A stretch of 64,000 bases of DNA, from contig AE017150.2 in assembly GCA_000002445.1 (NCBI GenBank), positions 128,001 through 192,000 on the forward strand, in the 5' to 3' direction. Shown here one piece after another: positions 5,500 to 57,096 of the stretch. The notes beneath the pieces are model-generated. The model was not told where the DNA came from, made no database searches, and saw only the letters and a list, made by a program, of their open reading frames with translations. Both the position numbers and the translations under genes were made by a program. The first letter of the stretch is position 1. Every line of letters starts with the position of its first letter. The stretch comes from Trypanosoma brucei (Eukaryota).

Positions 5500-6240
5500 T
5501 GGGAAAAAAGCGTCTGAGGGGACGTGAAGCAAGAGTTGATAATGTTTTCAGTTTATATGGCTCCCTATGCAATGCAAAGTGAAGTCACATTATAATGGAC
5601 AACGAAACTCAACTGCTCGGGATGGAGTTTGTTGATGGAACGCGTAGTGGAAATATAATGTGGAAGGATGAAGAACTTAATGTTGTCCCTGAAATTGAGG
5701 AAGCCGTTAAGAAACCAGAGTGCAGGGAAGAAGTTGAAGCAATGGTTCTAACATCTCAAATGGGGTGATAATAGGCCAAGTTCACCAACGGAAGTAACAA
5801 AAACATATTCATCCGTAGAGAAGAGTTCCGCGTATGGAATGTTGTAAGGAGTGGAATTGAATTATGGCGTACACAACGTGCTTTACCGGGATGTCCTGAT
5901 TTTCCACGATCATACGCTGCCATTGTTAACCCTGGGATTGGAAAATCTCAGAATTTGGGTTCTTTTATCCTCTACAAGTTATTGCATTGTGATGCGGAAG
6001 AGTTGCCTATTGTTGCGTACTTCTGTGGCATGGCAGTGCTAATATTTGAAACCAACTGATGGACCCTTCGGCATGATCAAGAGAGATAGAGGATACGCAG
6101 CTTTCATGCTGGACGGAAGCATGCCAAGCATTAGTCATTTTTTCTGCTACGCGTTTAATGAAAGTGTGCATTTATCTGAGTTGTCTGTGAATTGGGGAAG
6201 CGCTCTGACCAGTTCGTTTAATGAGCAAACTCCCATGGCT
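5500..6240 (+). pseudogene. RHS (retrotransposon hot spot protein) N-terminal fragment, degenerate. Related to the RHS subfamily of the gene at 51639..53663. Has in-frame stops and a frameshift.
   Basis: Translation contains ...SHIIMDNETQLLGMEFVDGTRSGNIMWKDEELNVVPEIEEAVKKPE...MVLTSQMG** then FIRREEFRVWNVVRSGIELWRTQRALPGCPDFPRSYAAIVNPGIGKSQNLGSFILYKLLHCDAEELPIVAYFCGMAVLIFETN*. It is about 90% nt-identical to 53040..53250 (minus) of the intact RHS. Weaker RHS similarity (WGSALTSSFNEQ vs WGSILISSHNER) continues in another frame to about 6240. Confidence 0.7.
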
Positions 6241-12200: not shown

Positions 12201-14178
12201 TTGTAAAATGAAGATACGTGCAGGTGTGGAGAAACGACTCCATTAATGCTTATGATGCACCAAATAATTCTCTCGTAAAGAAAGGAGAGAACAAATGCTC
12301 AGTACATGCGTCCCTATTTGTATCTTTAAATTAAGGTTCTCTTGAGTGGAGTAAAAGAAGAAAAGGCAAGAAGTATATGATGTGAGTGATAATACATAAT
12401 GAAATGACCCAACAAGAGGGAAAGGAAGTTACATGCCTTCACTACAGTCATACAAATAAAGCCAGACCCTTTACACTCGTTTCACAGTGTTCTGTCGCAT
12501 CGCTCTGTATAAACAAATTACTAATAGGAAATGGAAATGTAAGAAGAGAGTAAAAAAGTATCAAGTAGCTTGAGGATTATCGACACTCAGCTACGTGGAA
12601 TGATACGCATCGCAAATTTGTGTTTGAAATGATCACCATCCTAATGAACTTACTCGTATGTTACTTAATCCTGGGAAATACTTCTCTGTGCGCTCAAGTT
12701 ACCTGACAACTTTCCTTCCACACCCTATGCATTGTTACCACCTCCATTGTTAACTCCGTTGTTCCTGTCATATTCCTCAAGTTTTTCTTTGCATTCGACG
12801 TATAGTGCAATAATGCGCTCATTAAGTGAGACGGAAAATTGACGCACTTCCCTTTTCCAAAATCTTTCCTCACGTTTGCTTTGTTCATCCGTGGCTGTCC
12901 TGCTACAACACTGTGGCTTTGTAATTCTTTCGTCGTCAACCCTTTGAACATATATTATTTCCCATACCATATCATTAGAAAAATTGTCCCAGCGTCTAAA
13001 GTAACTTTGCAAACACCTTTTCATCTTAAATAACCCACCGGTGCTGCAGGGATGACTACCAGAAATTGTGTACTGCAGTCCCACAAAAGTCTTCGGGTTC
13101 TCAACAAAAAAGAACGCATCAACAACTGGGAAACTCCTTGATTGCGGCTTGTACAATTTCATGTATTCAATTTCAGCTCCAGCTACAATTGGAACATCCT
13201 CAGGAACCTCAATCGAAGGACCAATGAGTCTTGGTTCTTGCAGCACCTGCAGCACACTTCGTGGAATTTGATCCTCAGAAAGTGAGAGGCCCTGTAACTC
13301 CCTTGCCAACTCAATTAGTGCATCCTCATGTGACAATGCTTCAATGCCACTGTTCTCAAACATGTAGGCAGCGAGGGCGCGGTTAGACAACATGCCAGAA
13401 ATTAAAGCATATTTTTTTGTCCGCCAAGGTCTCAGAAAGTCTAAAATAGCTTGTCCCGTGTAAGATGAAAGCGGTCTGCAGCGATACGCATCACAAAGGG
13501 GGTCACCATCAACCACACGGACAGCCCTCACTAACTTGTGTGATACCTCATCTGTTTGCCACATACCTGCGTTTTGGAAAATTTTAGCGTAATCATTCAT
13601 ATCATCATCTCTCATTTTGCCAATGACCTCTCGAATTAGTTCCCGCTGCCTTTTATACCAAAATGAATCAACGATATGACGAAGCAGTGGACCAACGATA
13701 CGAATGCGGGCTTGAATTTCTTGCCATTCTCTTTCAATTTTCTCCTTCGCATCTGAAGGACTCCAACCGTAAGCAAGAGCAATTTTCCCCCACCTCGATA
13801 TGTGTATGGCTTCCAAATCCTTCAATGTGTCACAGTTTATGTAAATATGTGTAGCGCCGTTTTGCTTGGACCATTCATGGAATTGTCTAACGTTTGGAGA
13901 ACTCAAAGCAATACCGGAAAAATCACCAGGTGGTTTCACTGGAGCATGATGGTCCTTGTCCACGTCGAATATAAGGTATCCCTTAATATCCTCACCGCCA
14001 CTCGATTCTCCGATTATTTGCTTAACAGCTGTGAATGCACTCTTATAATTACTGTAAAACGTAACATATCCTGCTCGATCGCCTTTGGGTTTACGAAACA
14101 CGTACGCCTCGCCCTCCACAACGTATATGATAATCTGAAGCTGACTCGCTTCATAATGCAGTAGTTTGTATAACAGTA

Positions 14179-14682
14179 TTTTTTTTTTTTTAGAATTTTC
14201 TTCGTGCCTTCGTGAGAGTTTCTCCCAACTGGCGCGGCCATCAGCCATCACCGTAGAGCCCCGAGATGCTATCGGTCTGGCGACTGTGGCAGAGTCTCCC
14301 TTTTTCATTCATCCTAACACACTCTCTATAATTTTTGTTGTATTTCCGCATATGAACGGAATACAGCAGATGGGGCGAGAACCCTCCCACCCTGGACTCT
14401 CCCAAAGATGCCAATTTGCAATCCTTTTTTGGAGGTCCACATCACCGGACAGCAGCATCTTAGCGCGGATGATACTGCTGATGGCACGCTGGCACGTGCC
14501 CAGGGACCGACAAATGAAAAACGGTGTCCCAGCAAGACGCTGCTGATCCCTGTGCTGTATGATGCCGTAGCCGGAGCACAGCAGTGTTCCCCATGAAAGG
14601 AACGCTGCTGGCTCTTGGCTTCCCCCGATGATACGGGGTACTGGACCCTGGCACAACATTGAGGTGGCCGGCATCGCCAGGG
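14179..14682 (-). mobile_element. RIME (ribosomal mobile element, the non-autonomous ingi derivative), full length about 504 bp, copy 1 of 3. poly(A) end at 14179..14191.
   Basis: The plus strand shows a poly-T right after the TSD. The reverse complement of the right end is CCCTGGCGATGCCGGCCACCTCAACG..., the conserved ingi/RIME/L1Tc 5' signature. Length is about 500 bp. It is flanked on both sides by TGTATAACAGTA. Confidence 0.85.
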
Positions 14683-14694
14683 TGTATAACAGTA

Positions 14695-15202
14695 TTTTTT
14701 TTTTTTTAGAATTTTCTTCGTGCCTTCGTGAGAGTTTCCCCCCACTGGCGCGGCCATCAGCCATCACCGTAGAGCCCTGAGATGCTATCGGTCTGGCGAC
14801 TGTGGCAGAGTCTCCCTTTTTCATTCATCCTAACACACCCTCTATAATTTTTGTTGTATTTCCGCATATGAACGGAATACAGCAGATGGGGCGAGAAGCC
14901 TCCCACCCTGGACTCTCCAAAAGATGCCAATTGGCAATCCTTTTTTTTTCGGAGGTCCACATCACCGGACAGCAGCATCTTAGTGCGGATGATACTGCTG
15001 ATGGCACGCTGGCACGTGCCCAGGGACCGACAAATGAAAAACGGTGTCCCAGCAAGACGCTGCTGATCCCTGTGCTGTATGATGCCGTAGCCGGAGCACA
15101 GCAGTGTTCCCCATGAAAGGAACGCTGCTGGCTCTTGGCTTCCCCCGATGATACGGGGTACTGGACCCTGGCACCACGTTGAGGTGGCCGGCATCGCCAG
15201 GG
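14695..15202 (-). mobile_element. RIME copy 2 of 3, about 508 bp.
   Basis: About 98-99% identical to copy 1, with small indels in the T/A runs. It has the same flanking 12-bp TSD. Confidence 0.85.
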
Positions 15203-15214
15203 TGTATAACAGTA

Positions 15215-15716
15215 TTTTTTTTTTTAGAATTTTCTTCGTGCCTTCGTGAGAGTTTCTCCCAACTGGCGCGGCCATCAGCCATCACCGTAGAGCCCTGAGA
15301 TGCTATCGGTCTGGCGACTGTGGCAGAGTCTCCCTTTTTCACTCATCCTAACACACTCTCTATAATTTTTGTTGTATTTCCGCATATGAACGGAATACAG
15401 CAGATGGGGCGAGAACCCTCCCACCCTGGACTCTCCCAAAGATGCCAATTTGCAATCCTTTTTTGGAGGTCCACATCACCGGACAGCAGCATCTTAGCGC
15501 GGATGATACTGCTGATGGCACGCTGGCACGTGCCCAGGGACCGACAAATGAAAAACGGTGTCCCAGCAAGACGCTGCTGATCCCTGTGCTGTATGATGCC
15601 GTAGCCGGAGCACAGCAGTGTTCCCCATGAAAGGAACTCTGCTGGCTCTTGGCTTCCCCCGATGATACGGGGTACTGGACCCTGGCACCACGTTGAGGTG
15701 GCCGGCATCGCCAGGG
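15215..15716 (-). mobile_element. RIME copy 3 of 3, about 502 bp.
   Basis: Same as copies 1 and 2. It ends ...gcatcgccaggg at 15716 and is followed by TSD 15717..15728, after which the RHS N-terminal coding sequence resumes. Confidence 0.85.
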
Positions 15717-16799
15717 TGTATAACAGTAGGGATCCCACGGAAAACGATTTACCAATACCGGGTGTACCAATAAGAACATGAAACATCGGGTTGACAGTCA
15801 CTTCACCCATAAGCCACTGGTTAAGCCGTTCCTCAACCTTATGCCACACCCTCAGTGTTTCCCTACGGATATAAACATCACTATTAAAAACGTACCCCAC
15901 TCCTCTCTTATGATTAATATCATAATCTTTTGGGTTCGCTTTACACGACGTGTATGGCCAACCCATTTGAGATGTAAGCACAGCAATCTCCAAGTTACCG
16001 TCACGGGGAAGTGGTTTATACATTGTTTCCGGAACGTGACTGACATCAACTTCCTCCTTCGTCCACATGCGCGGCGGTCTTCCATCAAACACTTTCATTC
16101 CGAGTGGCTCTTCCCTGTGACCCGACTCCACATAACCCCACGTCGCATTGTATATGGATTCATATACTCCTCTCAGTTCGACAGCACCACCAGCTGTTTG
16201 GGTGGCTCGTTCCCTTGCTTCTTTGGCGGCCGCCAACGCTCCATCCAACATTCCCCTCGCCACGGGACCAACAAATTCCCTTATTTCCCCTCTTCCCTTC
16301 TCCTCCCACTGCCGGAGGTAGTAAATTTCCTTCTCAGACAGATACCTTGCTTTCCGCTTCATTTCAGAGAATTGGTCATATAATTCTTTATATTCCTCAA
16401 ACTCATCTGTGCCTTGTATATCCTCAAGAATCTCAGCATCAACAATATATCTTCTGGGATTCTTAACAAACACATCCATGGCTACATTCCGTGTGTCATA
16501 CGTGTTTAAAAACTTTTTCAGCAAAAAGTCATGCAGCGTCATATTACGCAAACCCGCATAATCTTCCAGCAGCACATTCCTCACCTTACTGTTCATTGTC
16601 CAATAGGGTCCCCCTTCAGTTCTCTGCCGTATTTGTGGAGGCTGAGCAGCAGCAGCAGCAGGAGGCGGTACATTTTCATCCCGTGGCCTCCTCACGGCTG
16701 CTCCAAAATTACCTGCTACTTGTTGGTTTGCATTATTTCTTCGTCGACCTCCACCTCTTCGACGTCTTGACATAACTCTCTTAATATTATTAACTTAAC

Positions 16800-39784: not shown

Positions 39785-40520
39785 AAAAGCGTCTGGGGGG
39801 ACGTGAAGCAAGAGTTGATAATGTTTTCAGTTTATATGGCTCCGTATGCAATGCAAAGTGAAGTCACATTATAATGGACAACGAAACTCAACTGCTGTGG
39901 AGGATGGTTGTTGATGGAACGCGTAGTGGCAATGTAATGTGGAAGGATGAAGAACTTAATGTTGTCCCTGAAATTGAGGAAGCTGTTGAGAAGAAACCAG
40001 AACGCAGGGAAGAAGTTGAAGCAATGGTTCTAACATCTCAAATGGGGTGATAATAAGCCAAGTTTGCCGGGGTGAGTAACAAAAACATATTCATCCATAG
40101 AGAAGAGCTCCGCGTATGGAATGTTGTAAGGAATGGAATTGAATTATGGCGTACACAGCGTGCTTTACCGGAATGTCTTTATTTTCCACGATCATACGCT
40201 GTCATTGTTAACCATGGGATTGGAAAATCTCAGAATTTGGGCTCTTTTATCCTCTACAAGTTATTGCATTGTGATGCGGAAGAGTTGCCTATTGTTGCGT
40301 ATTTCTGCGGCATGGCAGTGTTAATATTTGAAACCAACTGACGGACCCTTCGGCATAATCAAGGGAGATAGAAGGTACGCAGCTTTAATGCTGGACGGAA
40401 GCATGCCAAGCATTAGTCATTTTTTCTGCTACACGTTTAATGAAACTGTGCATTTATCTGAGTTGTCTATGAATTGGGAAGCGCTTCGACCAGGTCGTTT
40501 AATGAGCAAACTCCCATGGC
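39785..40520 (+). pseudogene. RHS N-terminal fragment, duplicate-copy-B counterpart of 5500..6240.
   Basis: ORF 40072..40341 translates FIHREELRVWNVVRNGIELWRTQRALPECLYFPRSYAVIVNHGIGKSQNLGSFILYKLLHCDAEELPIVAYFCGMAVLIFETN. Upstream there are the same in-frame double stops after TSQMG. Confidence 0.7.
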
Positions 40521-43500
40521 AGAGTGTTGAACACACCTCATTGCGATGTCTGAATCCGGTGCATCTTCGAGAGGGAGGAGATTAAATGTTCGCGCGCATC
40601 CCGTCTTAAGGATTTCAGCAGTCGGACAGTAACGGACTGCCCGGGGGAGAAGGAAAAGCGGCGAAACAGTCGGTTTTCGGGATGGTGGGAAGCATCGGTG
40701 TGATCCTCCACGTGTGCAAACATGATTCTTTCGGTATCTTTAGAGCGCTCTCAATGTTGAGATCGGTGGTGTTAAGCAGAATACAGGTCTGATCTCAGGT
40801 GAGTCGCGGCGGAATTCCGGGGAACTCTCCCGGCCGAAAAGGATAACCTAAGCAAATAACTGCGCGAGAAAAGAGTAACTGCCACATTTTTCACGAAACG
40901 TTATCATCAGAGTCGGAGGCGGATTCCAGTGATGACCGGATGTCGGAAGATTGATATAGCATGACCCCTTAAGGGTCCATAAGCGTGGAGATTGGCAAAG
41001 GATGGGATTGATGCGTTGAAAGGTTCGCAGAAAAAACAAACAAGCAAGTACGAAATACGATCGGTTGTTCCAATTGTCACACTGGAGCTGCTAATTGCAT
41101 CTGTATCGGCGTTTTTACACAAACGAAAACAATAACAAAGGAGGAATCGGGCATACGGTGGCCGACGTAACGTTTCAAAACAGCCGGGCACGGAATCCAA
41201 CTACAACATCTGTCAACGGAAGATGATGTGCTGTGCAATGGCCCTCGCAGTACATGATGGAAATAACCGGTGCGAGGAATGACGCGAGAACGTCCCATGT
41301 GTAATTGGTTTTCACCTCAAGTCATGGTCGTCTACAGGTTATGTGGAATAGATGAAAATAATAGGGAATTGTGAAAAAAAAGAGTTTTAAAAGAGTTTTT
41401 CGCCGTCATCGTCATCATTCTTCGGAAAGTCAGTATATGGGTTGTTATTATGGCGGTGCGAACTAGACCAGTCCGACGACGGCCACTGCATTTTCTCCCG
41501 GCGACTACTGATATTTTCTCCGCTTTGTCCTTTTCCAAACACTTTTAACTCCTTAAGGTTTCACCATCTTTTCACTTCTTCAGCTGTGCTCGCGCCTTCC
41601 TTCTGTTCCCGATGTCAACGACTCCTGTCCTTTTTACCTTTGCAGAATTCGCACGCTCTCAAGAATTTCCTTACATTTTGCACCTCTTCCCAGTTCCCTC
41701 ACCCGAATCGTGGTCATTCCTATGTCTCCGCCACGGTAGCGTGACGGTTTTTATCATACGCCCCGTCACCGAATCTAGCGCCGGTGTTTCCCGCGCCTGT
41801 GAACTTTCGCCCATGGTGTCCACGGCAAGTCGTTTCTCAACGATCCTTATTTCGCTGCATTTACAAGTTGCCGTTGGCTCTCTTTCCCGCTTGGCGTCAT
41901 GACAACAATGGCTGCGTTCGGCTTTGGCATATGGCTTGTGTACAGCATCTCTTGTTTCGCTTATTTATTTCGTGTGTCGAGGGAATGCTGCCGTTGGCAT
42001 TGACGTTCCTGAACTCAGCAAACTCCTGCCATCACTCACTTTCGTGAGTTCCATCAGCCGTCACAGTTGTGCTCTCGAGCTTGGTATCGTGCTTTCGGTT
42101 GCTTAGCGTCTAGTTAAATGCCACGGCCATGGGCGTCTCCTGAGCAGCAACGCCTTTCTTCATACCTGCAGCATTAGACTTACATTGTTGTGTCGTATGT
42201 GACGGAGGAAGACGCAGCTATGGTTTCAGGGTGGTGAACTCCGTTAGTTTGTTTTTATCATCGGTGACAAATTCGATTACGCAGTTGTTTTACTCTTCTG
42301 TAACTTTCCCTTCCCCAGTTTCAACTGTACATGTTTTCCTCAAAGTCATTCCCATCTGGCAAGTTGGTTTGTTTTTTCCTCCCTTTACAACTTCCAACAA
42401 ACAGAACGGCGTCCGCGACACAACTACTTCCCTTTTCCCCCTTACCTTCCCCACCGAAAAATATCGTTGAAAGTTCAATACTTTCAATGCAACTTTAGCG
42501 TAAGAAGTTTTTTGGCGGCGATGCCTGAGAATAGTCAAGTCTCACTTCCCTATAATATAGTAATAGAAAAAATATATAACATAATTATAAAAAGTGCTTT
42601 CGTGCAAACGAGTTTTACTGAAATATAACTCATATCGTAAACGAAATTTATTGATACGTACATAACCGCCTCTATTACTTACGAAGCGGAAGTGTCTGAA
42701 AACGTCTTTAACCCGCCTCCCGCGCTCCCCTTTGCTTGCTCTTTGGACACCCGCGGGTTTATCTTTCTGAGGTCACGTAACTCCATGAAGAATTAATCTT
42801 CCCATCTCGCAGCACACTCCATCTACGGCTAAAGCCTCATGAATCATGTCACTGAAATGTGTGTTGCAATTCCCACTATTTTTTTAAAAATAATATGCAT
42901 CATACTTGTGTTGACTACGCATACATGTACGAGACTCTTCAATCTCTTTCATAAGGCAAATATTCAAAAGCGGGCTCTCGTTTCACAAGTAGCACTTGCA
43001 GTTAAGAACTTCCTTCCCGAATTGAGGAATTATAAAACCACTCCCATCACCCTTGCATGGAAGCATCCGTTACCATCATGGCCACAGTTGCTACAACTCG
43101 CTACTTGCTCACTGGTTTTTTCTTTACTAAAATGCACATCCATTTTTGTGTAAGCTGTAACGCATATGTGTGTGTGTGTGTGTCTGTGTGTGGTAACACG
43201 GTTAAATTATTGGGTCGCATCCGGACCGTATTGCATCATGACAAATATGATGTTACCATTTAAAAAATAAGTAGCAATAGTAGTAGGGAGAAAGCTATTG
43301 TTTTTTCTCACTCCTGCTGCCGCGTACATCATGCGTGATACAACAGTTTTCATTTATTCTATAGTAGATTTTTTCACATAGCAAGGGATACTCGGAATTG
43401 TTGTATAACTTTCGTTGTCCCAGCAATACTGTCTGCTTTTCATGGTTAAACTAAAACTCCAATGAAATCACATTGTTGTGTCATCTTTTGTGAGTCACCA

Positions 43501-46500
43501 ATGATGGTTGTGCCCCACATTTCTTCATGCTGGTAACTATTTTGTTTCCACGACATTTAACCACGTCATGTGCCTCACACTAATAAATATGTTGCAGATC
43601 CATGTTTGAGTCCTCAATCTTTCAGGGGTCGCCTGCTGCAGCCTCACGACATCGGCGTCTTCTGAAAAGACCCTTGTGATGGTGTGTGAAACTCCAGGAT
43701 TCTCCTTTATTAACTGATGGGGAGTCGATTCAAATTCACTAATTCCTCATTTTTGCTAACGTATCGGAACCCCACCCGAATATTCTCAGGCAACTTCACT
43801 TGGGAGGGAAATGACTTTAGATCAAACACTGCCACCGACTGGTCATGGAGAGTAATTATCAACTGGGAAAAGTGACACAATGGGACATATGCCTCATAAT
43901 CATCCCTGCTCTTTTTAGCCTTTGGTCATGCAATAAATCAACACCTTCTTCCAATTCTGTTTTTCCTCCATCACAAAGAATGGCGCACAACTCATCCTGT
44001 CATATGTCTCTCTGAAACTGGGCCAATGATACGCGATTGCTTCATTATTTGGGACTTCTTTTTTTACAATGTGCAATTCAGATTCCTTTTTTGATACTTT
44101 CTCTTTCCACATCATCTGTGCTATTCTTAATGCTCCAACCCTCATCAAATCGCTTACTCGCTGCTTGCATCATCCTCTGTCAAATCCACGGAAGGAAAAT
44201 CATTCCCACATTTATTTCCTATTGGAGAGGTGAAGTATTTTCTTTTCCTCCTCTTCCCGTGAGGTCACCTTTGTTTTCCCCTTGTGAGTGTCAAGGAATG
44301 CTGTGCAATCGATAATTTGGGAAGATATTCCCCGTTATAAGTCCCGGCTTCCCTCACACTGGGGCCGCACATTCCTTCCAATTATATCTTACATCAAAAA
44401 CATTAAAAGAACCGACTTGCTTACGGAAGCTGTCACACATCTGAGATACCACACTGTGCCTCGTGGAAGTTCCATTGTGTAGATGTGCTTTCCAAATTCT
44501 ATTAATAATATGTTGTCAATGTCGTGTTCAATTGCAACTACTGCCGCTGCGCGTGTCAGCAGTGCTCTTCTCTTTATGGAATGTTCTATCATTACGTATG
44601 GTCTTTTCAGTATGGTGTCATTTTCCCCTTTGTGGTAATGGCTATGAACTTCTTCCCCTTTCCTCCCGAGGTTCCTCCCTATGACTTTTTTCACACTGGC
44701 AATGCTCTTTTCCCAGTTGATAATTACGCATCGTGTGAGTATGTGGGTATCGCTTTTGAATTTCTTTAGAAGGTTCCCTCCCAAAAAAAAATCCACTGTT
44801 GAGGCTTTCTTTTCGTGTCAGTGTGGCACAACATTTTTCTCTTTTTTTGGGAGCTGTGTAATTTCTTTTTGCCATCGCATGGCTGGATGCAATTCATTCC
44901 ATTGATATTGCAACTGGATACCACTCTGGACGGAACTTCCTGCAAGATATTATCGAATCCCCATTACAACATGTGTTGTGTTTGTTTGATGGGTTTACCT
45001 GTTACCGTACTGTAAAGACGGACCCAAAAACAACATCCGCGTCGGTTTGTCCAATAGAGATGATGGAAGAGTTCTCCTGTACTGAAATGGCAATGGTCTC
45101 TGCGAGTCGTAAACTTACAACAACAAATAAAAGTGCAGTTGCATCCTATGCTGGAATGCGGTAATGATTTTCCGCCAATGCATAAAAACACCGCATGATG
45201 AATTCCCTGTTGCTCACATGTTTTAGTCCTCAGCTACATTCACTTTGCTATTCTATTGGCTCCTGAAACCAATGTCATGATGTACGGACAGCTTTTTGTG
45301 GGAACTGCAATAAAAATAATAATCATAATTATAATAACTCCTTTCACCAATGAGTTTACTATTGGTTGTAAAAGTGCTCTTGGTGCCACTCCATTTTTCT
45401 TTTCTTGAGTCCCCAGCTGCTGAGGGGCTGTTGTATTTTTTTTTAAAGAGTGACGCACCGTTTTATTCCCCACCCCTTTCAGGTGACTTCCTCCTGCACA
45501 GTTTTTACTTTCCCATCGTAGAATGTTTTTCAAGGTGTTTCCTTTGTGAAGCTTTGGTTATGCTATAATTAAAGACCACTCAACTCCCTCCTTCCGGGAA
45601 CTGTTGTTGCATTTATTTCCCTTTAGTTGCTGCAAATTTGTTTATTTGACAAGTTGTAGTGCGATACTTCACTTGACCATATGTGTAACATCGTGTCTCG
45701 TTGCTTTATAAAAATTCAAAAAGAACACATCAGGTGATATTCTTCTGCTCTTACTTCGTCCATTCACATCTCTTCCCGCCAGTTCGGAAACTCCCACTCA
45801 AACTCACCACTCTGTGAAGATTTGTAGTTTCCGTTAGCGATGGACGTACTGAAGTGGACATGTTTGGCACTTCAAAACTAAGTTTTTTAAACTTACACCT
45901 TCCTTCTTGCATACAGCTTCAGTGCGAGAGTAAAGGAATAGTTGAGTATCATGAGAAAACATAAGCCCAAAACATTCTCAACTCAAGCTTTCAATAAAAG
46001 CAAACACATTAAGATGGTTTAGTGAACACATGCAGTATAATCCCTAGCAAAGGTATTATTCACACCCAATAAACAACTCAAACAAATAACACCAGCATAC
46101 ATATCGCAGACACATAAGTTGCACCTTCACAAACAAATGAAAGCTGCTGTGGCTCATCATGTGTAAAATATTATGAGCACAAAAACATAAATGTCCTTGA
46201 CCTTCCATAAATGTATAACACAATATTTCTTGCATTGTCATCGGGAAAATATTTTTTTTATATTGTTATATATATTCATCCAATAGTCAAGAGTGAGCTC
46301 TGGCCTTGTAGAACTGTAAATGCGTGCATGTTCTGTTATTATTGTTTCCCATTGCAAAATGAAGATACCTGCAGATGTGGAGAAACGTCTCCATAAATGC
46401 TTATGATGCACCAAATAATTCTCTCGTAAAGAAAGGAGAGAACAAATGCTCAGCATACGTGTCGCTATTTGTATCTTTAAATTAAGGTTCTCTTGAATGG

Positions 46501-46884
46501 AGTAAAGAAAAAACAAAGAAAAGGCAAGAAGTATATGATGTAATTGGTGAGGCATAATGAAATGACCCAACAAGAGGGAAAGGAAGTTACATGCCTTCAC
46601 TACAGTCATACAAATAAAGCCAGACCCTTCACACTCGTTTTACAATGTTCTGTCGTATCGCTCTGCATAAACAAATAATACTAATAGAAAAGGGAAATGT
46701 AAGAAGAAAGTAAAAAAGTATCAAATAGTTCGAGGATTATCGACACTCAGCTACGTGAAGTGATACGTATCGCAAATGTGTGTTTGAAATGCTCACCATC
46801 CTAATGAACTTACTCGTATGTTACTTAACCCTGGGAAATATTTCTCTGTGCGCTCAAGTTACCTGACAACTCTCCTTCCGCACC

Positions 46885-49800
46885 CTATGCATTGTTACCA
46901 CCTCTATTGTTAACTCCGTTGTTATTGTTACCTTTTACTTGCAATTCAACGTATAGTGCAGTAATGTGGTTACTAAGAGAGACCGCGAACTGACGCACTT
47001 CCTGTTCACAAAACCTTTCCTCAACCTTATTATTTTGTCCTCCGTCTTCGATTGTCCCCTCACAACATTGTGGCTTTGTAATTTTTTCGCTGTCAACCCT
47101 TTGAACATAGATTATTTCCCATACCATCCCGCGTGAAAAATTGTCCCAGCGTCTAAAGTAACTTTGCAAACACCTTTTCATCTTAAATAACCCACCGGTG
47201 CTGCAAGGATGACTACCGGAAATTGTGTACTGCAGTCCCACAAAAGTCTTCGGATTCTCAACAAAAAAGAACGCATCAACAACCGGGAAACTCCTTGATT
47301 GCGGCTTGTACAATTTCATATATTGAATTTCAGCTCCAGCTACAATTGGAACATCCTCAGGAACCACAATCAAAGGATTCGTGAGTCTTGGACCTTGCAG
47401 CACCTGCAGCACACTTTGTTGGATTTGATCCCCAGCAAATGAAAGGCCCTGTAACTCCCTTGCCAACTCAGTTAGTGTATTCTCATGTGACAATGCTTCA
47501 ATGCCACTCTTCTCAAACAGATGACCAACAATAGCGCAGTTAGACAGCAGAGCAGATATTGCAGCATATTTATTCAGTAACCAAGGCCTCAGAAAGTCTA
47601 AAATAACTTGCCCCGTGTAAGATGAAAGCGGTGTGCAGAGATACGAATCACACAGAAGATTCCCTTTCTTCACTCGAACAACCCTCACTAACCTGTGTGA
47701 TGCTTTGCGTGTTTGCCAGGTAGCTGCGTTTTGGAAAATTTTTGCGTAGCTTTCCTTCTTTACATCACTCATTTCGTTAATGGCTTCCTCGATTAGATCA
47801 CACTGCCTGGTGAACGACGCCGAATCAACAATGTGACGAAGCAGTGGGCCAACGATAGGAATGCGATCTTGAATTTCTTGCCATTCACTTTCAATTTTCT
47901 CCTTCGCATCTGAAGGATTCCAACCGTAAGCAGGAGCAATTTTCCCCCACCTCGATATGTGTATGACTTCCAAATCCTTCAATGTATCACAGTTAATGTA
48001 AAAATGTAGGGCTTTGTTTTGCTTGGACCATCCATGGAATTGTCTAACGTTTGGAGAGCTCAAGGCAATACCAGCGAAATCACCAGGTGGTTTCGTCGGA
48101 GCAGGATGATTCTTGTCCACGTCAAATATAACGTATCCCTTAATATTCTCTGCGCCACATGAATCTCTGACTATTTGGCCAATAAGCGTTGAGGCATCAT
48201 CATAATTACTGTAAAACGTAACATATCCTGCTCGATCGCCTTTGGGTTTACGAAACACATACGCCTTACCACTCACAACGTACATGATAATCTAAAGCTG
48301 ACTCGATTCATAATGCAGTAGTTTGTATAACAGTATTATTTTTTTTGGAATTTTCTTCGTGCCTTCGTGAGAGTTTCTCCCAACTGGCGGGGCCATCAGC
48401 CATCACCGTAGAGCCCTGAGATGCTATCGGTCTGGCGACTGTGGCAGAGTCTCCCTTTTTCATTCATCCTAACACACCCTCTATAATTTTTGTTGTATTT
48501 CCGCATATGAACGGAATACAGCAGATGGGGCGAGAAGCCCCCCTCACCCCGGACTCTCCAAAAGATGTCAATTAGCAATCCTTTTGTTTTGATTTTTGTT
48601 ATTCGTTTATTATTCTCTCCCCCTCTTTCTGTTTCTGTTGCTTGTTGATTGCATACCCCCTCTGTCTCTAAGGGTGTCTGGACTATTCCTGCGTCCTGTG
48701 CTTTTCCTGCTAGCTCCACACTCGGCAATAAGGGGGGAAGTTGCAGAAGGGAGAGTGGGTTGTATGACTGTTACCTTAGGTGAGGACTTCACCTGCGGCC
48801 GGCTCCGTTCAACCGCAATGAGAAATTGCGCCAGCATTTAAGAGAAACATACATGCTGCACACACTCACCTTCTACCGCAAACCTGACACGTAACTCCTT
48901 CAAACCTGGACAGCTCATCAAGTGCAGCGACGTTTCTTCGCAGTCGCCGCGTTGGCTGGTAACAGCGCGCTCTACCTTCATACCGTTCATCTTCTTTTGA
49001 TGGAGGGTGAGGCCAGTTTTGCTAGCACACTGCCTTCCGCATGTCGGGCACACCAACATGGATGTGTTTTTATGCGGGGAATCAGTGGCACACAATTTTG
49101 TGCTTTTGCTGCATTTAAGCTCGACTCCCTCACCTTTGTGGAAAGCCTTACAGTGTCGGATGAGGGAGTCCCTGCAACTGAGCACTTTTTGGCACACACC
49201 ACACTGCACCCCGCCCTTCCCCGGGACGTCAACGTTTTCCTCACGGGCACGCTTACGAGGGAATTGCACCAACACCACGGTACCGTCCTCCGTCACTATG
49301 CTTTTATGTTTGAATTTCTTGTGTAGTGACAGGGAAGAACGTGTACCGAAGCTCGCCTCGCACAGGTCACATTGAAACGGCAGCTTCCGTGTATCCTGAG
49401 AGGCTGGCGCTGCTGGGGCTTTACCATCTCCTTGCACTGAGTCCTCGTTCTCTCGCCCCCTTTTCACGCGGCAACTGCCGCTGCCTATGCCATGTATTGT
49501 TCTAAGGTGGTGTAGTAGTCTGCCTGGCACTGCGAATTTGGAGGCACAGATGGTACAATGAAGCACCTGCGGTCTCATCGGGACTCGTGTGCTCGATGGT
49601 AGGGGAACGATCGCCACCACTGGAGGGGGCTCCGGGGGGATATCCACTGCAGGTGTTGCATCGCCGTATTTGATCCTCCGGAGGGCATCAGCTCGCACAA
49701 AGCCATGTTTGTTTACCATATGCGTTACAGCACTCGAGCGGCATTGGTATGTGGCATCACATTCCGTACATTTGGTCGGTTCGGAGGTTCTCTGAACAGT

Positions 49801-50580
49801 GCGTGTCGCAACAGTTGGGACTGTTTGTATTGTTGGTCCTATCGCTGCATGTTGCGGGTTACACCATCGGCACTGTGGAGGCACACTCGGGTTGATCTTC
49901 CGCACCCTCTTGAATTGCATACTGCGGAATACTGAAAGAGTTATATGGCCAACCCTTCTGCGAGGTGAGCACAGCAATCTCTAAATTACCGTGACGAGGC
50001 AGTGGGTCGCACAAGTCAAAAGGCGTGTGACTGACATTCACCTCCTCTTCTGTCCACAACTCGGGTTTGCCGTCACAATTACCCACTACCTTCATGCCAA
50101 GAGGTAAATCATTGTGACCCGACTCCACATAACCCCATGTCGCATTGTATATGGAATCATATACTCCTTTCAGTTCTGCACCACCAGCTGTTTGGTCAGC
50201 TCGTTCCCTTGCCTCTTTGGCAGTATCCAATGCCGCATCCAGCATTGCTCTCGCCCTGGGACCAACAAATTCCCTTATTTGCGCTTTTGCCATCTCCTCC
50301 CATTGCTGCATGTCTTAAATTCTATTACGAGGCAGATCAATAACTGCCCTTGGTAATTGAAACTCATCAAGCCGCTGTATCCTGTATTTCTTCAAGAACA
50401 TTAGCATTAATATATTTTCCCGGATTCTGAACAAACAAAAACATGGCCACATTCTCTGTTTTATACGTGTTTGAGAAGTATTGATTCAAAATTTCATGCA
50501 GTTTCATTTCATCCAAGCTCGCATAATCTTCCAGCAGCACATCCTCAATAGAACTGTTAATTGATCAAGTTGGCCCTTTT
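46885..50580 (-). pseudogene. RHS pseudogene B, paralog of A. The C-terminal part (46885..48323) and a degenerate N-terminal part (about 49930..50580, start codon lost, internal stops) are separated by an ingi 3' fragment.
   Basis: The C-terminal ORF 46885..48285 is about 85% identical at the protein level to the A C-terminal part. The N-terminal ORF 49859..50311 (MQQWEEMAKAQIREFVGP...YNATWGYVESGH...NLEIAVLTSQKGWPY) matches the A N-terminal part. Upstream of 50311 similarity continues, but with stops. Confidence 0.8.
48336..49930 (-). mobile_element. 5'-truncated ingi retroelement remnant. It comprises the RIME-identical 3' half with poly(A) (48336..48584) and about 1.35 kb of ingi-internal 3' sequence (48585..about 49930). 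The internal part includes a C2H2 zinc-finger ORF (48838..49977).
   Basis: TSD TGTATAACAGTA at 48324..48335, at the same hot-spot nucleotide as in A. The next about 249 bp are about 97% identical to the poly(A)-proximal half of the RIMEs. Similarity to RIME stops exactly at the RIME midpoint (48584 vs 14430), which is where ingi's 4.7-kb internal segment is inserted. The ORF shows at least four C-x2-C-x12-H-x4/5-H fingers (CTECDATYQCRSSAVTHMVNKH, CTICASKFAVPGRLLHHLRTIH, CDLCEASFGTRSSLSLHKKFKH, CGVCQKVLSCRDSLIRHCKAFH), as expected for the C-terminal domain of the ingi/L1Tc-type ORF. Assignment of the internal part to ingi is by context, not by remembered sequence. Confidence 0.6.
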
Positions 50581-51638
50581 TCGCCTCCACGCAGTCAATT
50601 CAAAAAATATATTGCCGCATGCAACCTATTACTATGGAAACGCCTTATTGAATTCCACACTTCTGAAAACTTGCCCCCTGATTCTTCACAAGCTTGCGAT
50701 AAAAGCATAAACAAAAATAGAATCAGAAACAGAGACAGAGACAGTTTACACTGTAGAAAAGGACACCACAGTGAGTCACTCATTCTAGGAAGATAATCAC
50801 AAAAGCAAACACCCTCAAAAAGACAGCTCAGCGCCATAAAGCAGAACCTACTTACTACTAATAAGGAGTTGTGCCCCTTCCCTGCCAGTAAAGACACAAC
50901 ATTCCCCAACAAACACAGTGGAAGATCACAAGACTTATGACCCCTCCATACTAACCTAAACAAGACAGCGTGAATCACAATTGCATGCAATGCGCTAAGA
51001 ACCCAAAACGGTTCCGCACATTTGCCTCTGAGGATCCCTACTCAATCGCACCCCTACGCGGGAATCAATATTCTGCCTGTCACAAAATAACACAGCGGAC
51101 AGCAGAAGGAAAGGGGGAAAATAAAGAAACCCATCACAACACATAAGGATTTTAATGGGAACTTAAAGGAAACCTTCTAGATGAGAATGCTAACACCCAT
51201 ACCACAACAGTGCTCACAATCCTCTTGTATATCAGTGTTTAATTAGTTTTTCACAAAATGATTTGATAATCGTAACGATTCAAGGAATAAAAAAATGTAA
51301 ATGATAAGACACGACGCAACAAGCTGCCACATTGCCATTAATGGATGTATGTAATACCATTGTTACTATCCATTTCATTGTGACAACACATGCAAAATAC
51401 AATCGATACCACGGATTTCGTACGCCTTCCGTCGTGCGGTGAATCGCAGAGTGGATGTAAACAGTTGCGAAAGGATTACACCAACGCAACTGCAAGTTCG
51501 TTATGCTGCCAGGAACCTGTCCAGGATATATGATGAGTGAACTCCATTACCCAGACAAAAAATGTGACGCCTCCTCTTGCCCTTTCATTCGTTCTTCACA
51601 GTGTTTACCTCGTTGTTGGCTTGCCTGAGGTTCGTCAA

Positions 51639-53663
51639 TTACCTTCGGCCCACAGCAGCCACCGCAAGCATTTTGGTAACTATGTTATCCTCATACTGCA
51701 CATGGTACTGCTGCACATTGTTCTTCCAGAATCCCTCCACAAACTGGTGACTGCGGTGCTTTGCCTTACCCTGCGTAATTTCACACTTCTGCTCAGACCT
51801 CATCGCTGTGGATTCGAAGTGCTGAACGTAAATGATTTCCCAGTGAAACATCTCAGTAATTTCCTTCAACTGTTCAACGGTAGCCTCATTCTGGTGACCT
51901 CCCCCCTCCGCACTTGGAAAGAGGGATTGTAACAAATGAATGAATTCGTCGGTTGCTGTGTCATGGCTGCTGGCAACAGTAAACTGCAACAACACAATAG
52001 TTTTCTTCCCTATGGTTCCTGAAGCCTGTGCAGCCTGCTTTTCATCAACAATAAAGAATGCATCCGCTACGGGGTAGTTGGGAATGCATGGCACATATAA
52101 TTCCACCGGAGCCCCCTTCGACTCAGCCCAGTTGATGTCACCTGACACTGTGTTTGGTCGACAAGCATTGAGGAGGTCATCCCTTACGTGTTGCAAAATG
52201 CTTTTGCGTGTCCTCGTGCGCCTGGCCCTTTCATTTGCTGGAAGTTTCGTTATTAGACTTACGAAGCAAGTTAACACTCTGGGGGAACACAAATATTTAA
52301 TTGCATTCTTCTCAAAATAATGCCCGATGACAGATGCGTCCCGCGTCATACCAGACACCAGTGCCCACTCCTCAGCAATGCCGGAAAACACTACATTCAA
52401 AATTCTTTTCTTTATAGATTCAGAGTGAGGTACGCATATGTATATCTCACTATTGTTTCTCCCACAGGCACGAACAATCTTCACGAGTTTGTGAGATGCG
52501 TCACTTTCTCTCCATCCGCCTTTGTTACCCACCACGCCAATATAGAGTTCACGTCGCTCATGGGATTTGATGGAATTTATTTCATTGTCTATGTCGTCCT
52601 CACGCGTGGCATGCTTTGCTTCATCGAACACATAACGAAGTGAAGGTCCAACATGCTCCACACGGTTCTCATACATGTTCCACTTTTCCCTCAACTCAAC
52701 AGGCGTGGCTTGAGGAAAAAGCTTGGGTCCCACACGTGAGAAGAAAGCCCGCATTTCACTCATTTCCCAGCAGTTAACAACAATACGTGCACATCTTTCC
52801 CTCTGCTGGAACCAGCTGTCAAAATTTCTTTCATTATGTGAACTGATCAAAATGCTTCCCCATTTTGGAGCCACATCTGCCGGTGGCTGCTCACCTTTGT
52901 TGACGAAGTCATAAATAATATAACCACGTGTATTAGATGATATATTCTTCATAAACGTTATAGCCGCTTCTTTACTGTACTCCCTAACTCTGCCAACGCC
53001 ACCACCACCTGATTTCTCAAATATATATGCGGCTACACCACGGAAGTACGCAACAACAGGTAACTCTTCCGCATCATAATGCAGTAACTTGTAGAGGATA
53101 AAAGAACCAAAATTCTGAGATTTTCCAATCCCCGGGTTACCAATGGCAAGGTATGATCGTGGAAAATAAAGACATCTTGGCATAACACGTTGTGTACGCC
53201 ATAATTCAATTCCACTCCTTACAACATTCCATACACGGAGCTCTTCTCTGCGAATGAATATGTCACTGTTACTTCCCCGGGCAAAGCCTGTATATGGCCA
53301 ACCCATTTCTGAGGTAAGAACCAACAGCTCAACTCCTTTAGTGCGTTCCGGCTTCTGTTCAAGAGCTTCCTCAATTTCAGGCACGACATTAACTTCCTCA
53401 TCCTTCCACATCAAACCCTCATTGGGCATTCCATCAACCAAGCTCATTCCCAATGTTTGAGTTCCATCGTCGATAATAATATGACTCAATTTCGCATCAT
53501 AAATGGTATCGTATAATTTCTCTTCGAGAGACTTGCCCTCTCCGGTTTCTGATGGGTTCTCGTTTTCTCGGCCGGCTTGTCTCTTCATCGGGCGGTACGC
53601 ACCATTCAACCATCCATTTAAAACATTCCGAGTATCTCCCACACTACCGCCGTTCTGATTCAT
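51639..53663 (-). CDS. RHS (retrotransposon hot spot) protein, apparently intact, 674 aa. Uninterrupted hot spot. Short N-terminal variant.
   Basis: ATG at 53663 (MNQNGGSVG...). Contains GNPGIGKSQNFGSFILYKLLHYDAEELPVVAYF uninterrupted at 53040..53130. Has the conserved RHS C-terminal motifs SHKLVKIVRA, PVADAFFIVDE and WEIIYVQH. No internal stop. Confidence 0.8.
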   Translation of the reverse strand: MNQNGGSVGDTRNVLNGWLNGAYRPMKRQAGRENENPSETGEGKSLEEKLYDTIYDAKLSHIIIDDGTQTLGMSLVDGMPNEGLMWKDEEVNVVPEIEEALEQKPERTKGVELLVLTSEMGWPYTGFARGSNSDIFIRREELRVWNVVRSGIELWRTQRVMPRCLYFPRSYLAIGNPGIGKSQNFGSFILYKLLHYDAEELPVVAYFRGVAAYIFEKSGGGGVGRVREYSKEAAITFMKNISSNTRGYIIYDFVNKGEQPPADVAPKWGSILISSHNERNFDSWFQQRERCARIVVNCWEMSEMRAFFSRVGPKLFPQATPVELREKWNMYENRVEHVGPSLRYVFDEAKHATREDDIDNEINSIKSHERRELYIGVVGNKGGWRESDASHKLVKIVRACGRNNSEIYICVPHSESIKKRILNVVFSGIAEEWALVSGMTRDASVIGHYFEKNAIKYLCSPRVLTCFVSLITKLPANERARRTRTRKSILQHVRDDLLNACRPNTVSGDINWAESKGAPVELYVPCIPNYPVADAFFIVDEKQAAQASGTIGKKTIVLLQFTVASSHDTATDEFIHLLQSLFPSAEGGGHQNEATVEQLKEITEMFHWEIIYVQHFESTAMRSEQKCEITQGKAKHRSHQFVEGFWKNNVQQYHVQYEDNIVTKMLAVAAVGRR

Positions 53664-54075
53664 TTCACTCTCCGAATAATAATCTTAACTGAGTGTGTTG
53701 TGTTATTTCCTTTCTTTGTAACATAAATAATAAAAAAAAATTAAGATGAGGGAATTTAAAATGGATACGCTTCTAAACCAAAGCAAATATACAATAAATG
53801 AATATCAGGAATTAATATGGCAGATGGAAACTATTTACTAAAATTGAGATTCAATACAAATCTTATCATGTGTTAAGAACTCACAGCAACTTAAGCACAA
53901 ATGAGGTATGACAGTATGAATAAACATTTCTGTTTGGAGGAAAACTCAAACAACAATTCCCATTCATAAAACACAATCATTTCAGAAAAAATAATATACT
54001 TAGATATATATAAGTATGTATTGAAAAGCAAAAAAAATAAATAAATGTGGCATTGCCATGAAAAACAGGAAATAA
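53664..54075 (-). repeat. Conserved RHS 5'-flank (5' UTR / processing region). Copy 1 of 2, with the second copy at 58845..59260.
   Basis: About 90% nt identity between 53664..54075 and 58845..59260, read by eye (cattcatttcactctcc[g/t]aataataatcttaa[c/t]tgagtgtgttgtgttatttcctttc...). Both lie immediately upstream of RHS ATGs. Confidence 0.75.
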
Positions 54076-57000: not shown

Positions 57001-57096
57001 AATGCATAAGCCATTAGTAAAGTATAAATACAGTTTTTGGTATCGAATCCATCATATGTTACAAAGCCGCATTTCACTAACACACAAGAGCAAAAT

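What the first reader, a model, noticed from the sequence alone, without database searches (positions are those of the whole stretch)
48324..49977. Paralogous RHS hot spot carries a 5'-truncated ingi (RIME 3' half plus about 1.35 kb with a multi-C2H2 ORF) with loss of about 230 bp of RHS
In copy B the insertion is at exactly the same nucleotide and in the same orientation as in copy A, with the same TSD at 48324..48335. Instead of RIMEs there is only the poly(A)-proximal RIME half followed by non-RIME sequence, beginning precisely at the RIME midpoint. This is the hallmark of ingi. On the 5' side there is no 5' RIME half and no second TSD. The junction to RHS (about 49930) lies about 230 bp (about 75 codons, RRETLRVWHK...GIGKSFSVGSLLLY in copy A) upstream of where the hot spot should be. 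So either a 5'-truncated retrotransposition with target deletion occurred, or a later deletion or recombination removed the ingi 5' portion plus adjacent RHS. The 379-aa ORF with 4-5 C2H2 fingers is a neat view of the ingi C-terminal nucleic-acid-binding domain.
Basis: partly seen in the sequence, partly recalled or inferred. Interest (0 to 1): 0.5.

Follow-up and report, generated by a model that had tools for sequence, protein, structure and literature searches.

The report
Truncated ingi retrotransposon in RHS pseudogene
This is a dead, front-truncated copy of the Trypanosoma brucei "ingi" jumping gene sitting at the known insertion hot spot of an RHS pseudogene. It is a well-documented kind of genomic scar, so it is ordinary rather than new.

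Summary
Window 48333-49904 (minus strand) is the last 1,572 bp of an ingi non-LTR retrotransposon. It aligns without a break at 95.4% to the 3' end of a full-length 5.27-kb ingi from T. equiperdum (APE-RT-RNase H-zinc-finger order), and at 94.3% to a T. b. gambiense ingi.

The poly(A) end abuts the 12-nt RHS hot-spot sequence TGTATAACAGTA (48324-48335). This is the same nucleotide and orientation as the three tandem RIMEs in paralogous copy A.

The 5' RIME half (which in full elements carries the Pr77 promoter region), the APE, RT and RNase H regions and a second TSD copy are all absent. So is the RHS stretch that includes the P-loop (150-225 bp).

ORF residues 25-379 are 94% identical to the ingi C-terminal domain. 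Four C2H2 fingers are intact and a fifth has an H-to-N change. The first 24 codons are not ingi, and the stop codon is premature relative to the reference.

The same junction is present in T. equiperdum (61/61 nt), where the ORF is frameshifted, so this is an old, decaying relic.

How the 5' junction formed is unresolved: abortive retrotransposition with target deletion, or a later deletion. 29 nt at the junction (49905-49933) cannot be assigned. Novelty and interest are low.

The parts
46886..48323 (-). RHS copy B, part downstream of the hot spot (RHSP P-loop-domain remainder and C-terminal region). It carries a nonsense codon TAG at 48292-48294.
   Evidence: Pfam RHSP E=9e-108. 84% nt identity to copy A coding sequence. 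Nonsense codon seen in the translation.
48324..48335 (-). RHS hot-spot 12-mer TGTATAACAGTA (sense strand TACTGTTATACA). It is the sequence duplicated as a TSD around each RIME in copy A, but is present only once in copy B.
   Evidence: Exact-match scan: 14167, 14683, 15203, 15717 and 48324 only.
48336..48346 (-). Remnant of the ingi poly(A) tail (AAAAAAAATAA on the sense strand).
   Evidence: Read directly from the sequence and from the alignment with a copy A RIME and T. equiperdum.
48347..48585 (-). 3' RIME half, which is the 3'-terminal ~250 bp of ingi.
   Evidence: About 95% identity to the three RIME 3' halves of copy A. Corresponds to ingi nt ~5017-5272 of L003.
48586..49904 (-). ingi internal sequence (about nt 3701-5016 of the 5,272-nt reference span). 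It starts just after the RNase H region and covers the C-terminal zinc-finger domain and the 3' untranslated part.
   Evidence: Unbroken 95.4% alignment to L003 11686-13257. 94.3% to L004 over 49902-49309. Boundary detail.
48838..49920 (-). ATG-initiated 360-codon ORF; the mechanical TTG-start version runs to 49977. Residues 25-379 of the 379-aa version are the ingi C-terminal domain. The TAA stop at 48838-48840 is premature relative to the reference ingi.
   Evidence: 332/355 residues identical to L003 ingi ORF residues 307-661. Read-through comparison. 33% identity to the 'Tbingi protein' of T. theileri.
49705..49770 (-). C2H2 zinc finger 1 (CTECDATYQCRSSAVTHMVNKH).
   Evidence: Motif C-x2-C-x12-H-x4-H.
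49492..49557 (-). C2H2 zinc finger 2 (CTICASKFAVPGRLLHHLRTIH).
49306..49371 (-). C2H2 zinc finger 3 (CDLCEASFGTRSSLSLHKKFKH). This is the finger with the best Pfam match.
   Evidence: Pfam zf-C2H2_4 E=4.7e-9, best stretch residues 201-224. Motif.
49138..49203 (-). C2H2 zinc finger 4 (CGVCQKVLSCRDSLIRHCKAFH).
48985..49050 (-). Degenerate fifth finger (CPTCGRQCASKTGLTLHQKKMN). The last His is Asn here; the reference ingi has His.
   Evidence: L003 reads ...HQKKMHG.
49905..49933 (-). 29 nt at the RHS/ingi junction that cannot be assigned. It is either the hypervariable RHS segment after GWPYxxF or filler added at joining. It contains the ATG of the 360-codon ORF.
   Evidence: ingi similarity ends at 49904. 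The best alignment of the 43 nt after GWPY (49900-49942), which include these 29, to five RHS copies is no better than shuffles, 577 of 2000. No source found by short-word BLAST.
49934..50582 (-). RHS copy B N-terminal fragment (RHS_N domain up to ...LTSQKGWPYNSF). It is frameshifted near 50376-50416 and lacks the first ~50 codons seen in copy A.
   Evidence: Pfam RHS_N E=3.5e-37. tblastn and alignment. 99% identity to an annotated T. equiperdum RHS protein.
14167..15728 (-). Comparator in RHS copy A: three tandem full RIMEs, each bounded by the 12-nt TSD, at the same hot spot.

Best explanation
Identity (near certain, about 0.97). Window 48336-49904 (minus strand) is a dead copy of the Trypanosoma brucei LINE ingi that retains only its last ~1.57 kb: the zinc-finger C-terminal coding region, the 3' UTR, the 3' RIME half and the poly(A). 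It lies inside an RHS pseudogene at the family's retroelement hot spot.

Shown:
- The poly(A) end joins RHS at exactly the nucleotide used by the three RIMEs of paralogue A.
- The hot spot lies five codons after the GKS of the P-loop.
- The 5' RIME half (where the Pr77 promoter lies, per the literature), the APE, RT and RNase H regions and a second TSD copy are absent.
- 150-225 bp of RHS, including the P-loop, is missing.

Inferred mechanism. The ingi endonuclease nicked the bottom strand at the hot spot, and target-primed reverse transcription started on the poly(A) tail. This explains the canonical 3' junction.

For the 5' junction I lean (about 0.5) towards a one-step event. Reverse transcription stopped after ~1.57 kb, just 3' of the RNase H coding region. 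The incomplete cDNA was then joined to a top-strand end some 150-225 bp upstream of the nick, instead of 12 bp downstream. That gives no TSD, a target-site deletion, and possibly up to 29 nt of filler.

The copy could never have been autonomous. It has since decayed: a premature TAA, an H-to-N change in finger 5, and a frameshift in the T. equiperdum counterpart.
For: - ingi identity: 95.4% over 1,575 columns to a full-length 5.27-kb ingi. That element has Exo_endo_phos_2, RVT_1, RNase_H and C2H2 domains in that order.
- A second ingi gives the same 5' boundary.
- Protein identity is 94% over 355 residues, directly after the RNase H domain.
- Same insertion nucleotide and orientation as the RIMEs of copy A.
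- No 5' RIME half and no second TSD copy.
- RHS residues 277-348 of copy A are missing.
- The junction is 61/61 nt identical in a T. equiperdum locus that is otherwise 2-7% diverged. The structure is therefore real, arose once, and is old.
- Literature on structure: RIME is ingi with the central 4.7 kb deleted, and the TSD is 12 bp (PMC2323293).
- Literature on the hot spot: it lies just downstream of the ATP/GTP-binding motif, and about 60% of RHS copies are disrupted (PMC7563717, PMC6393297).
- Literature on truncation: 49.7% of copies of the sister element L1Tc are 5'-truncated, attributed to unfinished reverse transcription (PMC1874656).
Against: Nothing in the data separates one-step truncation plus target deletion from a canonical full-length insertion followed by a ~3.9-kb deletion.

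- No intact close relative of copy B's RHS N-terminus was available, so the RHS breakpoint is not defined. Microhomology versus filler at 49905-49933 therefore could not be scored.
- Subtelomeric RHS arrays recombine often. The T. equiperdum locus is itself a mosaic relative to the window.
- A-versus-B identity is lower on the 5' side of the hot spot than on the 3' side (76% versus 84%).

The last two points both favour secondary rearrangement. I found no figure for the frequency of 5'-truncated ingi in T. brucei in the papers I could read.
Confidence: 0.5

Rival explanations
1. Two-step origin. A full-length ingi (or an ingi/RIME array) inserted canonically at the hot spot with a 12-bp TSD. 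Later, a single deletion of about 3.9 kb removed ingi nt 1-~3700, the upstream TSD copy and 150-225 bp of adjacent RHS. In trypanosomes such a deletion would probably occur by microhomology-mediated end joining.
For: - The hot spot in copy A shows repeated canonical, TSD-flanked insertions, so canonical insertion is the norm at this site.
- The locus is old and decaying, which leaves ample time for a deletion.
- RHS clusters are recombination-prone (PMC7563717, PMC6393297; mosaic L002).
- The 29 unassigned nt could simply be the hypervariable RHS segment after GWPYxxF, giving a clean RHS-ingi join.
Against: - It needs two events where one would do.
- No relic of the deleted part, no second TSD copy and no intermediate allele was seen. 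The T. equiperdum copy has the identical junction.
- No demonstrable microhomology at the junction beyond a possible 2 nt.
Confidence: 0.35
2. Chimeric origin. The RHS N-terminal fragment (49934-50582) and the ingi-plus-RHS C-terminal part come from two different RHS genes of a tandem array. They were joined by a larger illegitimate deletion or an unequal recombination. On this reading the apparent loss of ~230 bp of RHS understates what was removed.
For: - A-versus-B nucleotide identity is 76% (69% further upstream) on the 5' side of the hot spot, but 84% in the coding part on the 3' side and 94% downstream.
- The literature describes RHS pseudogenes arising by recombination between variants upstream of the retroelement site (PMC7563717, citing Bringaud 2002).
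- L002 shows an N-terminal crossover between A-like and R58-like copies.
Against: - The discordance in identity is modest and could reflect different constraint or gene conversion.
- No donor genes were identified.
- The breakpoint does not lie in shared homologous sequence, so it cannot be simple homologous recombination through the retroelement.
Confidence: 0.1
3. The zinc-finger ORF is a host C2H2 gene fragment captured next to a solo RIME half, or a domesticated ingi-derived zinc-finger gene that is still functional.
For: - An ATG-initiated 360-codon ORF exists with four intact C2H2 fingers.
- pN/pS between the window and L002 is 0.45, on only 19 substitutions.
Against: - The sequence aligns without a break with ingi across the RIME-half boundary, at 95%, so it is not a captured host gene.
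- The T. equiperdum counterpart has a 1-nt frameshift that destroys fingers 4 and 5.
- The window copy has a premature stop and an H-to-N change in finger 5.
- It is out of frame with the RHS N-terminus.
Confidence: 0.02

Closest known systems
RHS pseudogenes interrupted by RIME or ingi at the family hot spot (T. brucei; Bringaud et al. 2002 as cited in PMC7563717 and PMC6393297)
   Same: - RHS_N plus RHSP gene architecture.
- Insertion a few codons after the P-loop.
- Element in the same orientation as the gene, with the 12-nt target TACTGTTATACA.
- The gene is disabled and lies in a cluster of RHS copies.
   Different: Only the 3' third of ingi is present, with no second TSD copy. The RHS segment that includes the P-loop itself is deleted, whereas the canonical case (copy A in this window) has complete, TSD-flanked elements.
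Full-length ingi, 5.25 kb (PMC2323293); reference copies L003 (T. equiperdum) and L004 (T. b. gambiense) fetched here
   Same: 95% nucleotide identity and co-linearity over nt ~3701-5272. Same C-terminal multi-C2H2 domain, 3' RIME half and poly(A).
   Different: - It lacks the 5' RIME half, where the Pr77 promoter and HDV-like ribozyme lie according to the literature.
- It lacks the 2A peptide and the APE, RT and RNase H regions.
- It carries a premature stop and a mutated fifth finger.
[quoted passage not shown]
   Same: Same clade of elements. Truncation is attributed to unfinished reverse transcription. The C-terminal C2H2 (C-x2-C-x12-H-x3-5-H) domain sits after RNase H.
   Different: L1Tc has two C2H2 motifs, whereas ingi here shows five. 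No biochemical data exist for the ingi domain in anything I could read.
L1 insertion-associated target-site deletions in mammals
   Same: A 5'-truncated LINE with a canonical poly(A) junction, no TSD, and loss of target DNA upstream of the nick.
   Different: Different LINE clade and host. In trypanosomes the end-joining route would be microhomology-mediated. A one-step origin is not demonstrated here.

Membership tests
ingi (ingi/L1Tc clade non-LTR retrotransposon) | 3' end consists of the 3' half of RIME followed by a poly(A) tail | tested here: met
   48347-48585 is about 95% identical to the RIME 3' halves of copy A. An A-run follows at 48336-48346.
ingi (ingi/L1Tc clade non-LTR retrotransposon) | Internal 4.7-kb sequence is contiguous with the RIME half and co-linear with reference ingi | tested here: met
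   Met for the part present. 48333-49904 aligns to L003 nt 3701-5272 of the element span at 95.4% without a break. L004 gives 94.3%.
ingi (ingi/L1Tc clade non-LTR retrotransposon) | [quoted passage not shown] | tested here: not met
   Only the C2H2 domain is present. APE, RT and RNase H are found in reference L003 but not in the window copy. This is a fragment, not a complete member.
ingi (ingi/L1Tc clade non-LTR retrotransposon) | 5' end consists of the 5' half of RIME, including the Pr77 signature | tested here: not met
   ingi nt 6-254 match only the three RIMEs of copy A and nothing in copy B.
ingi (ingi/L1Tc clade non-LTR retrotransposon) | Flanked by a 12-bp target-site duplication | tested here: not met
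   A single copy of TGTATAACAGTA at 48324. No second copy within 2 mismatches in 48336-50600.
RHS (retrotransposon hot spot) gene family | RHS_N and RHSP (P-loop) domains | tested here: met
   Pfam RHS_N E=3.5e-37 for 49859-50311. Pfam RHSP E=9e-108 for 46885-48285.
RHS (retrotransposon hot spot) gene family | ATP/GTP-binding motif (GxxGxGKS) just upstream of the hot spot | tested here: not met
   Present in copy A (GTPGIGKS), R674 and R58, but deleted in copy B. Copy B is a pseudogene.
RHS (retrotransposon hot spot) gene family | Retroelement inserted at the family-specific hot spot in the 5' part of the coding region | tested here: met
   The poly(A) junction is at the same nucleotide as in copy A, five codons after GKS.
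C2H2 zinc-finger nucleic-acid chaperone domain of L1Tc/ingi elements | C-x2-C-x12-H-x3-5-H motifs located C-terminal to RNase H | tested here: met
   Four exact motifs plus one with the last His changed to Asn. The position after RNase H is shown in L003. Pfam zf-C2H2_4 E=4.7e-9.
C2H2 zinc-finger nucleic-acid chaperone domain of L1Tc/ingi elements | Nucleic-acid binding and chaperone activity | not testable with these tools
   Biochemistry exists only for L1Tc C2-L1Tc (PMC5814959). It is inferred by homology for ingi.

The most novel reading that the evidence does not exclude
Two readings are not excluded.

(a) This locus is a genuine one-step ingi insertion with 5' truncation and a 150-225 bp target-site deletion. 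It would then be a natural record of how trypanosomes, which lack classical NHEJ, resolve the second junction of target-primed reverse transcription.

(b) More speculatively, the ATG-initiated 360-codon ORF yields an ingi-derived multi-C2H2 protein in this strain.

The second reading I put at about 2%.
Probability: 0.4. Interest if true: 0.3.

Novelty: already known. Interest (0 to 1): 0.12.

Why it matters
It matters little beyond correct annotation. It documents one more way in which the RHS hot spot inactivates a gene copy: here the P-loop is physically deleted, not merely interrupted.

The window also offers a side-by-side contrast with copy A, where canonical insertions are stacked as three TSD-separated RIMEs.

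If an empty or full-length allele were found in another strain, the junction could show how trypanosomes complete or abort LINE integration. That is a niche question for retrotransposon biologists.

Tried and rejected
- Protein database search with the zinc-finger ORF found only a T. theileri 'Tbingi protein' at 33% identity. T. brucei ingi proteins are not in that collection. I therefore reached full-length ingi indirectly. I searched with the read-through RHS/RIME ORF, picked hits carrying the 2A-like DVEENPGP plus endonuclease N-terminus, and fetched their loci.
- The exhaustive representative search returned mostly generic multi-C2H2 proteins and a few short ingi-like fragments. It was not followed up because the nucleotide identity had already settled the question.
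- A search for a close intact relative of copy B's RHS N-terminus found only the T. equiperdum counterpart, which has the same truncation. The RHS breakpoint therefore stays undefined.
- I tried to assign 49905-49933 to RHS. Short-word BLAST found no source. Local alignment of the 43 nt after GWPY (49900-49942) to five RHS copies gave two mutually exclusive weak matches to the YIRRE/LRVW region, no better than shuffles (577 of 2000). A shared GGGTTGG 7-mer between RHS and ingi lies ~45 nt from the break and is treated as chance.
- Rfam scans of the copy A RIMEs and of copy B gave no hits, so the absence of the Pr77/HDV-like ribozyme could not be shown that way. It follows instead from the absence of the 5' RIME half.
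- Exact-protein look-ups of three window ORFs, meant to identify the source record or other strains, found nothing.
- The key papers (Bringaud 2002, PMC118050; Bringaud 2009, PMC2756862; Kimmel 1987, PMC365235) are not held. Their content is cited only through papers that summarise them.
- pN/pS on the ORF rests on too few substitutions to be informative.
Full report
**Setting.** The window is a Trypanosoma brucei-group RHS (retrotransposon hot spot) gene cluster.
- Pfam finds RHS_N and RHSP domains in several minus-strand ORFs.
- tblastn maps RHS copies or fragments at 5553-6050 (+), 12726-16773 (copy A, -), 39832-40338 (+), 46886-50582 (copy B, -), 51642-53663 (intact, 674 aa, -), 57100-58763 (-) and 62863-63984 (-).
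- A T. equiperdum contig (L002) is co-linear with 40043-58308 at 95-97%.

**Checking the observation.**
- Copy A carries three complete RIMEs in tandem (14167-15728), each bounded by TGTATAACAGTA. That 12-mer occurs only at 14167, 14683, 15203, 15717 and 48324 in the whole window.
- In copy B the 12-mer at 48324-48335 is followed by a T-run, which is the poly(A) of a minus-strand element. Then come ~240 bp that are ~95% identical to the RIME 3' halves of copy A (E about 1e-116).
- Similarity to RIME stops at 48585/48586, exactly where the RIMEs of copy A switch to their 5' half.
- Copy B has no 5' RIME half. It has no second copy of the 12-mer, even allowing two mismatches, up to 50600.
- So the descriptive part of the finding is correct.

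**Is the rest ingi?**

No T. brucei ingi protein is in the searchable protein collection. The zinc-finger ORF hit only a T. theileri 'Tbingi protein' at 33% identity. That protein's locus shows weak endonuclease, RT and RNase H signals upstream.

I obtained true references indirectly:
- A search with the RHS/RIME read-through ORF of copy A returned small annotated proteins. They begin in the RIME 5' half and continue into '...DVEENPGPSLRGMQWNCAGLSQGKRLALHK...', the 2A-like peptide and endonuclease N-terminus of ingi.
- Their loci gave a full-length element in T. equiperdum (L003 about 7986-13257, 5.27 kb). Pfam finds Exo_endo_phos_2, RVT_1 (E=2e-33), RNase_H (E=5e-9) and C2H2 in that order.
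- They also gave a gapped copy in T. b. gambiense (L004).

The results:
- Window 49904-48333 aligns without a break to L003 11686-13257 at 95.4% over 1,575 columns.
- Window 49902-49309 aligns to L004 at 94.3%.
- Across the whole window, the only other ingi-related DNA is the three RIMEs of copy A, which match ingi nt 6-254 and ~5017-5272. This reproduces the textbook relationship that RIME equals the two ends of ingi (PMC2323293).
The sequence is ingi, not a captured host gene.

**The ORF.**
- Residues 25-379 of the 379-aa ORF are 94% identical (332/355) to residues 307-661 of the L003 ORF segment. The RNase H domain of that segment is at residues 99-236.
- Four C-x2-C-x12-H-x4-H fingers are intact.
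- A fifth (CPTC...HQKKMN) has Asn where the reference has the final His.
- The TAA at 48838-48840 is AAA in L003, and homology continues in frame for ~80 more codons. The ORF end is therefore a nonsense mutation.
- The first 24 codons (TTG start at 49977) are out-of-frame RHS plus junction sequence. The first ATG is at 49920.
- In the T. equiperdum counterpart a 1-nt deletion frameshifts the ORF before finger 4. pN/pS values are uninformative.
- This is a decaying relic. By homology with L1Tc C2-L1Tc, the intact domain is a nucleic-acid-binding chaperone (PMC5814959). That function is inferred, not tested.

**The 5' junction.**
- Both ingi references read ...GGATGGATGTT(G/T)CGAAAGATCAACCCG. 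Copy B reads ...ATTCAAGAGGGTGCGGAAGATCAACCCG. ingi similarity therefore ends at 49904, or 49902 against L004.
- On the other side, RHS similarity is clear to GWPY (49943). By the family pattern GWPY-x-x-F it probably reaches 49934.
- The 29 nt between (49905-49933) match nothing in the window or in the fetched loci except the identical T. equiperdum junction.
- Alignments of the 43 nt after GWPY (49900-49942), which include these 29, to the RHS YIRRE/LRVW region are no better than shuffles (577/2000).
- Relative to copy A, residues 277-348 are missing.
- Depending on whether the 29 nt are RHS, the loss is about 150-225 bp. It always includes the GxxGxGKS P-loop and the upstream copy of the 12-mer.

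**Further decay of copy B.**
- A TAG at 48292-48294, ten codons after the hot spot.
- A frameshift in the N-terminal part near 50376-50416, with loss of the first ~50 codons.

**Age and reality.**
- The junction is 61/61 identical in L002.
- The surrounding segments differ by 2.3% (RHS N), 2.5% (ingi), 3.6% (RIME half) and 6.9% (RHS C).
- The structure is therefore not an assembly artefact. It arose once, before these two loci diverged.

**Mechanism.**

Shown: canonical use of the hot-spot nick site at the 3' junction, and a non-canonical 5' junction with truncation, no TSD and loss of target DNA.

Inferred: target-primed reverse transcription from the nick, which is the established model for this clade (PMC2323293, PMC5814959).

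For the 5' end there are three routes:
- (i) Abortive reverse transcription, with the cDNA joined to an upstream end in one step. 5' truncation is common in the sister element L1Tc (PMC1874656).
- (ii) Canonical insertion followed by a ~3.9-kb deletion.
- (iii) A larger rearrangement joining parts of two RHS genes. This is hinted at by lower A-versus-B identity on the 5' side than on the 3' side of the hot spot (76% versus 84%) and by the mosaic structure of L002.

I put these at roughly 0.5, 0.35 and 0.1. The data do not discriminate further, because no intact relative of copy B's N-terminus was available.

**Comparison with known biology.** RHS pseudogenes disrupted by RIME or ingi at this hot spot are the founding observation of the family (Bringaud 2002, via PMC7563717 and PMC6393297). 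About 60% of copies, or 78 of 118 annotated genes, are pseudogenes. A truncated ingi with an adjacent deletion is a minor variant of that theme.

**Verdict.** The feature is already known in kind and of low interest.

Noticed in passing
window 14167-15728: RHS copy A holds three complete RIMEs in head-to-tail tandem, separated by single copies of the 12-nt TSD (four copies in all). This pattern is expected if each new element re-used the target site regenerated by the previous TSD, or if the array grew by unequal recombination.
   Followed up: partly
L002 11794-11950 (T. equiperdum counterpart of window ~48518-48528): A 157-bp insertion of unknown origin lies inside the RIME 3' half of the T. 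equiperdum copy. It is absent from the window, from the RIMEs of copy A and from L003, and has no match in any sequence held.
   Followed up: partly
L002 3-2205 versus window 16057-18293 and 58308: The T. equiperdum locus is a mosaic relative to the window. Its first ~2.2 kb resembles the upstream region and N-terminus of copy A (91-92%). From about L002 2045 it then follows the R58 copy (58308 downwards, 95%). This implies a crossover within the conserved RHS N-terminal region.
   Followed up: no
window 7438-14373 versus 40043-48528; 5553-6050 and 39832-40338 (+): A segmental duplication of ~7-8 kb (about 88-91% identity) contains the 3' parts of copies A and B. It also contains, at matching positions, plus-strand RHS N-terminal fragments in which the GWPY motif is replaced by three consecutive stop codons (G***) in both copies.
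   Followed up: no
P0005-P0008, P0014 (ingi N-termini from other T. brucei-group loci): Annotated 'hypothetical' or 'T. brucei spp.-specific' proteins of 165-271 aa are really the start of the ingi ORF. They consist of a RIME 5'-half translation, a 2A-like DVEENPGP peptide, and then the AP-endonuclease N-terminus.
   Followed up: partly
window 48292-48294 and 50376-50416: RHS copy B has further disabling lesions independent of the ingi fragment. There is a TAG nonsense codon ten codons after the hot spot, and a frameshift with truncation in the N-terminal part.
   Followed up: partly
window 57100-58763: Another RHS copy (R58) has an uninterrupted hot-spot region, but its P-loop reads GTSGIGKS and its downstream part matches RHS only in broken pieces. 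It is probably also a pseudogene.
   Followed up: no
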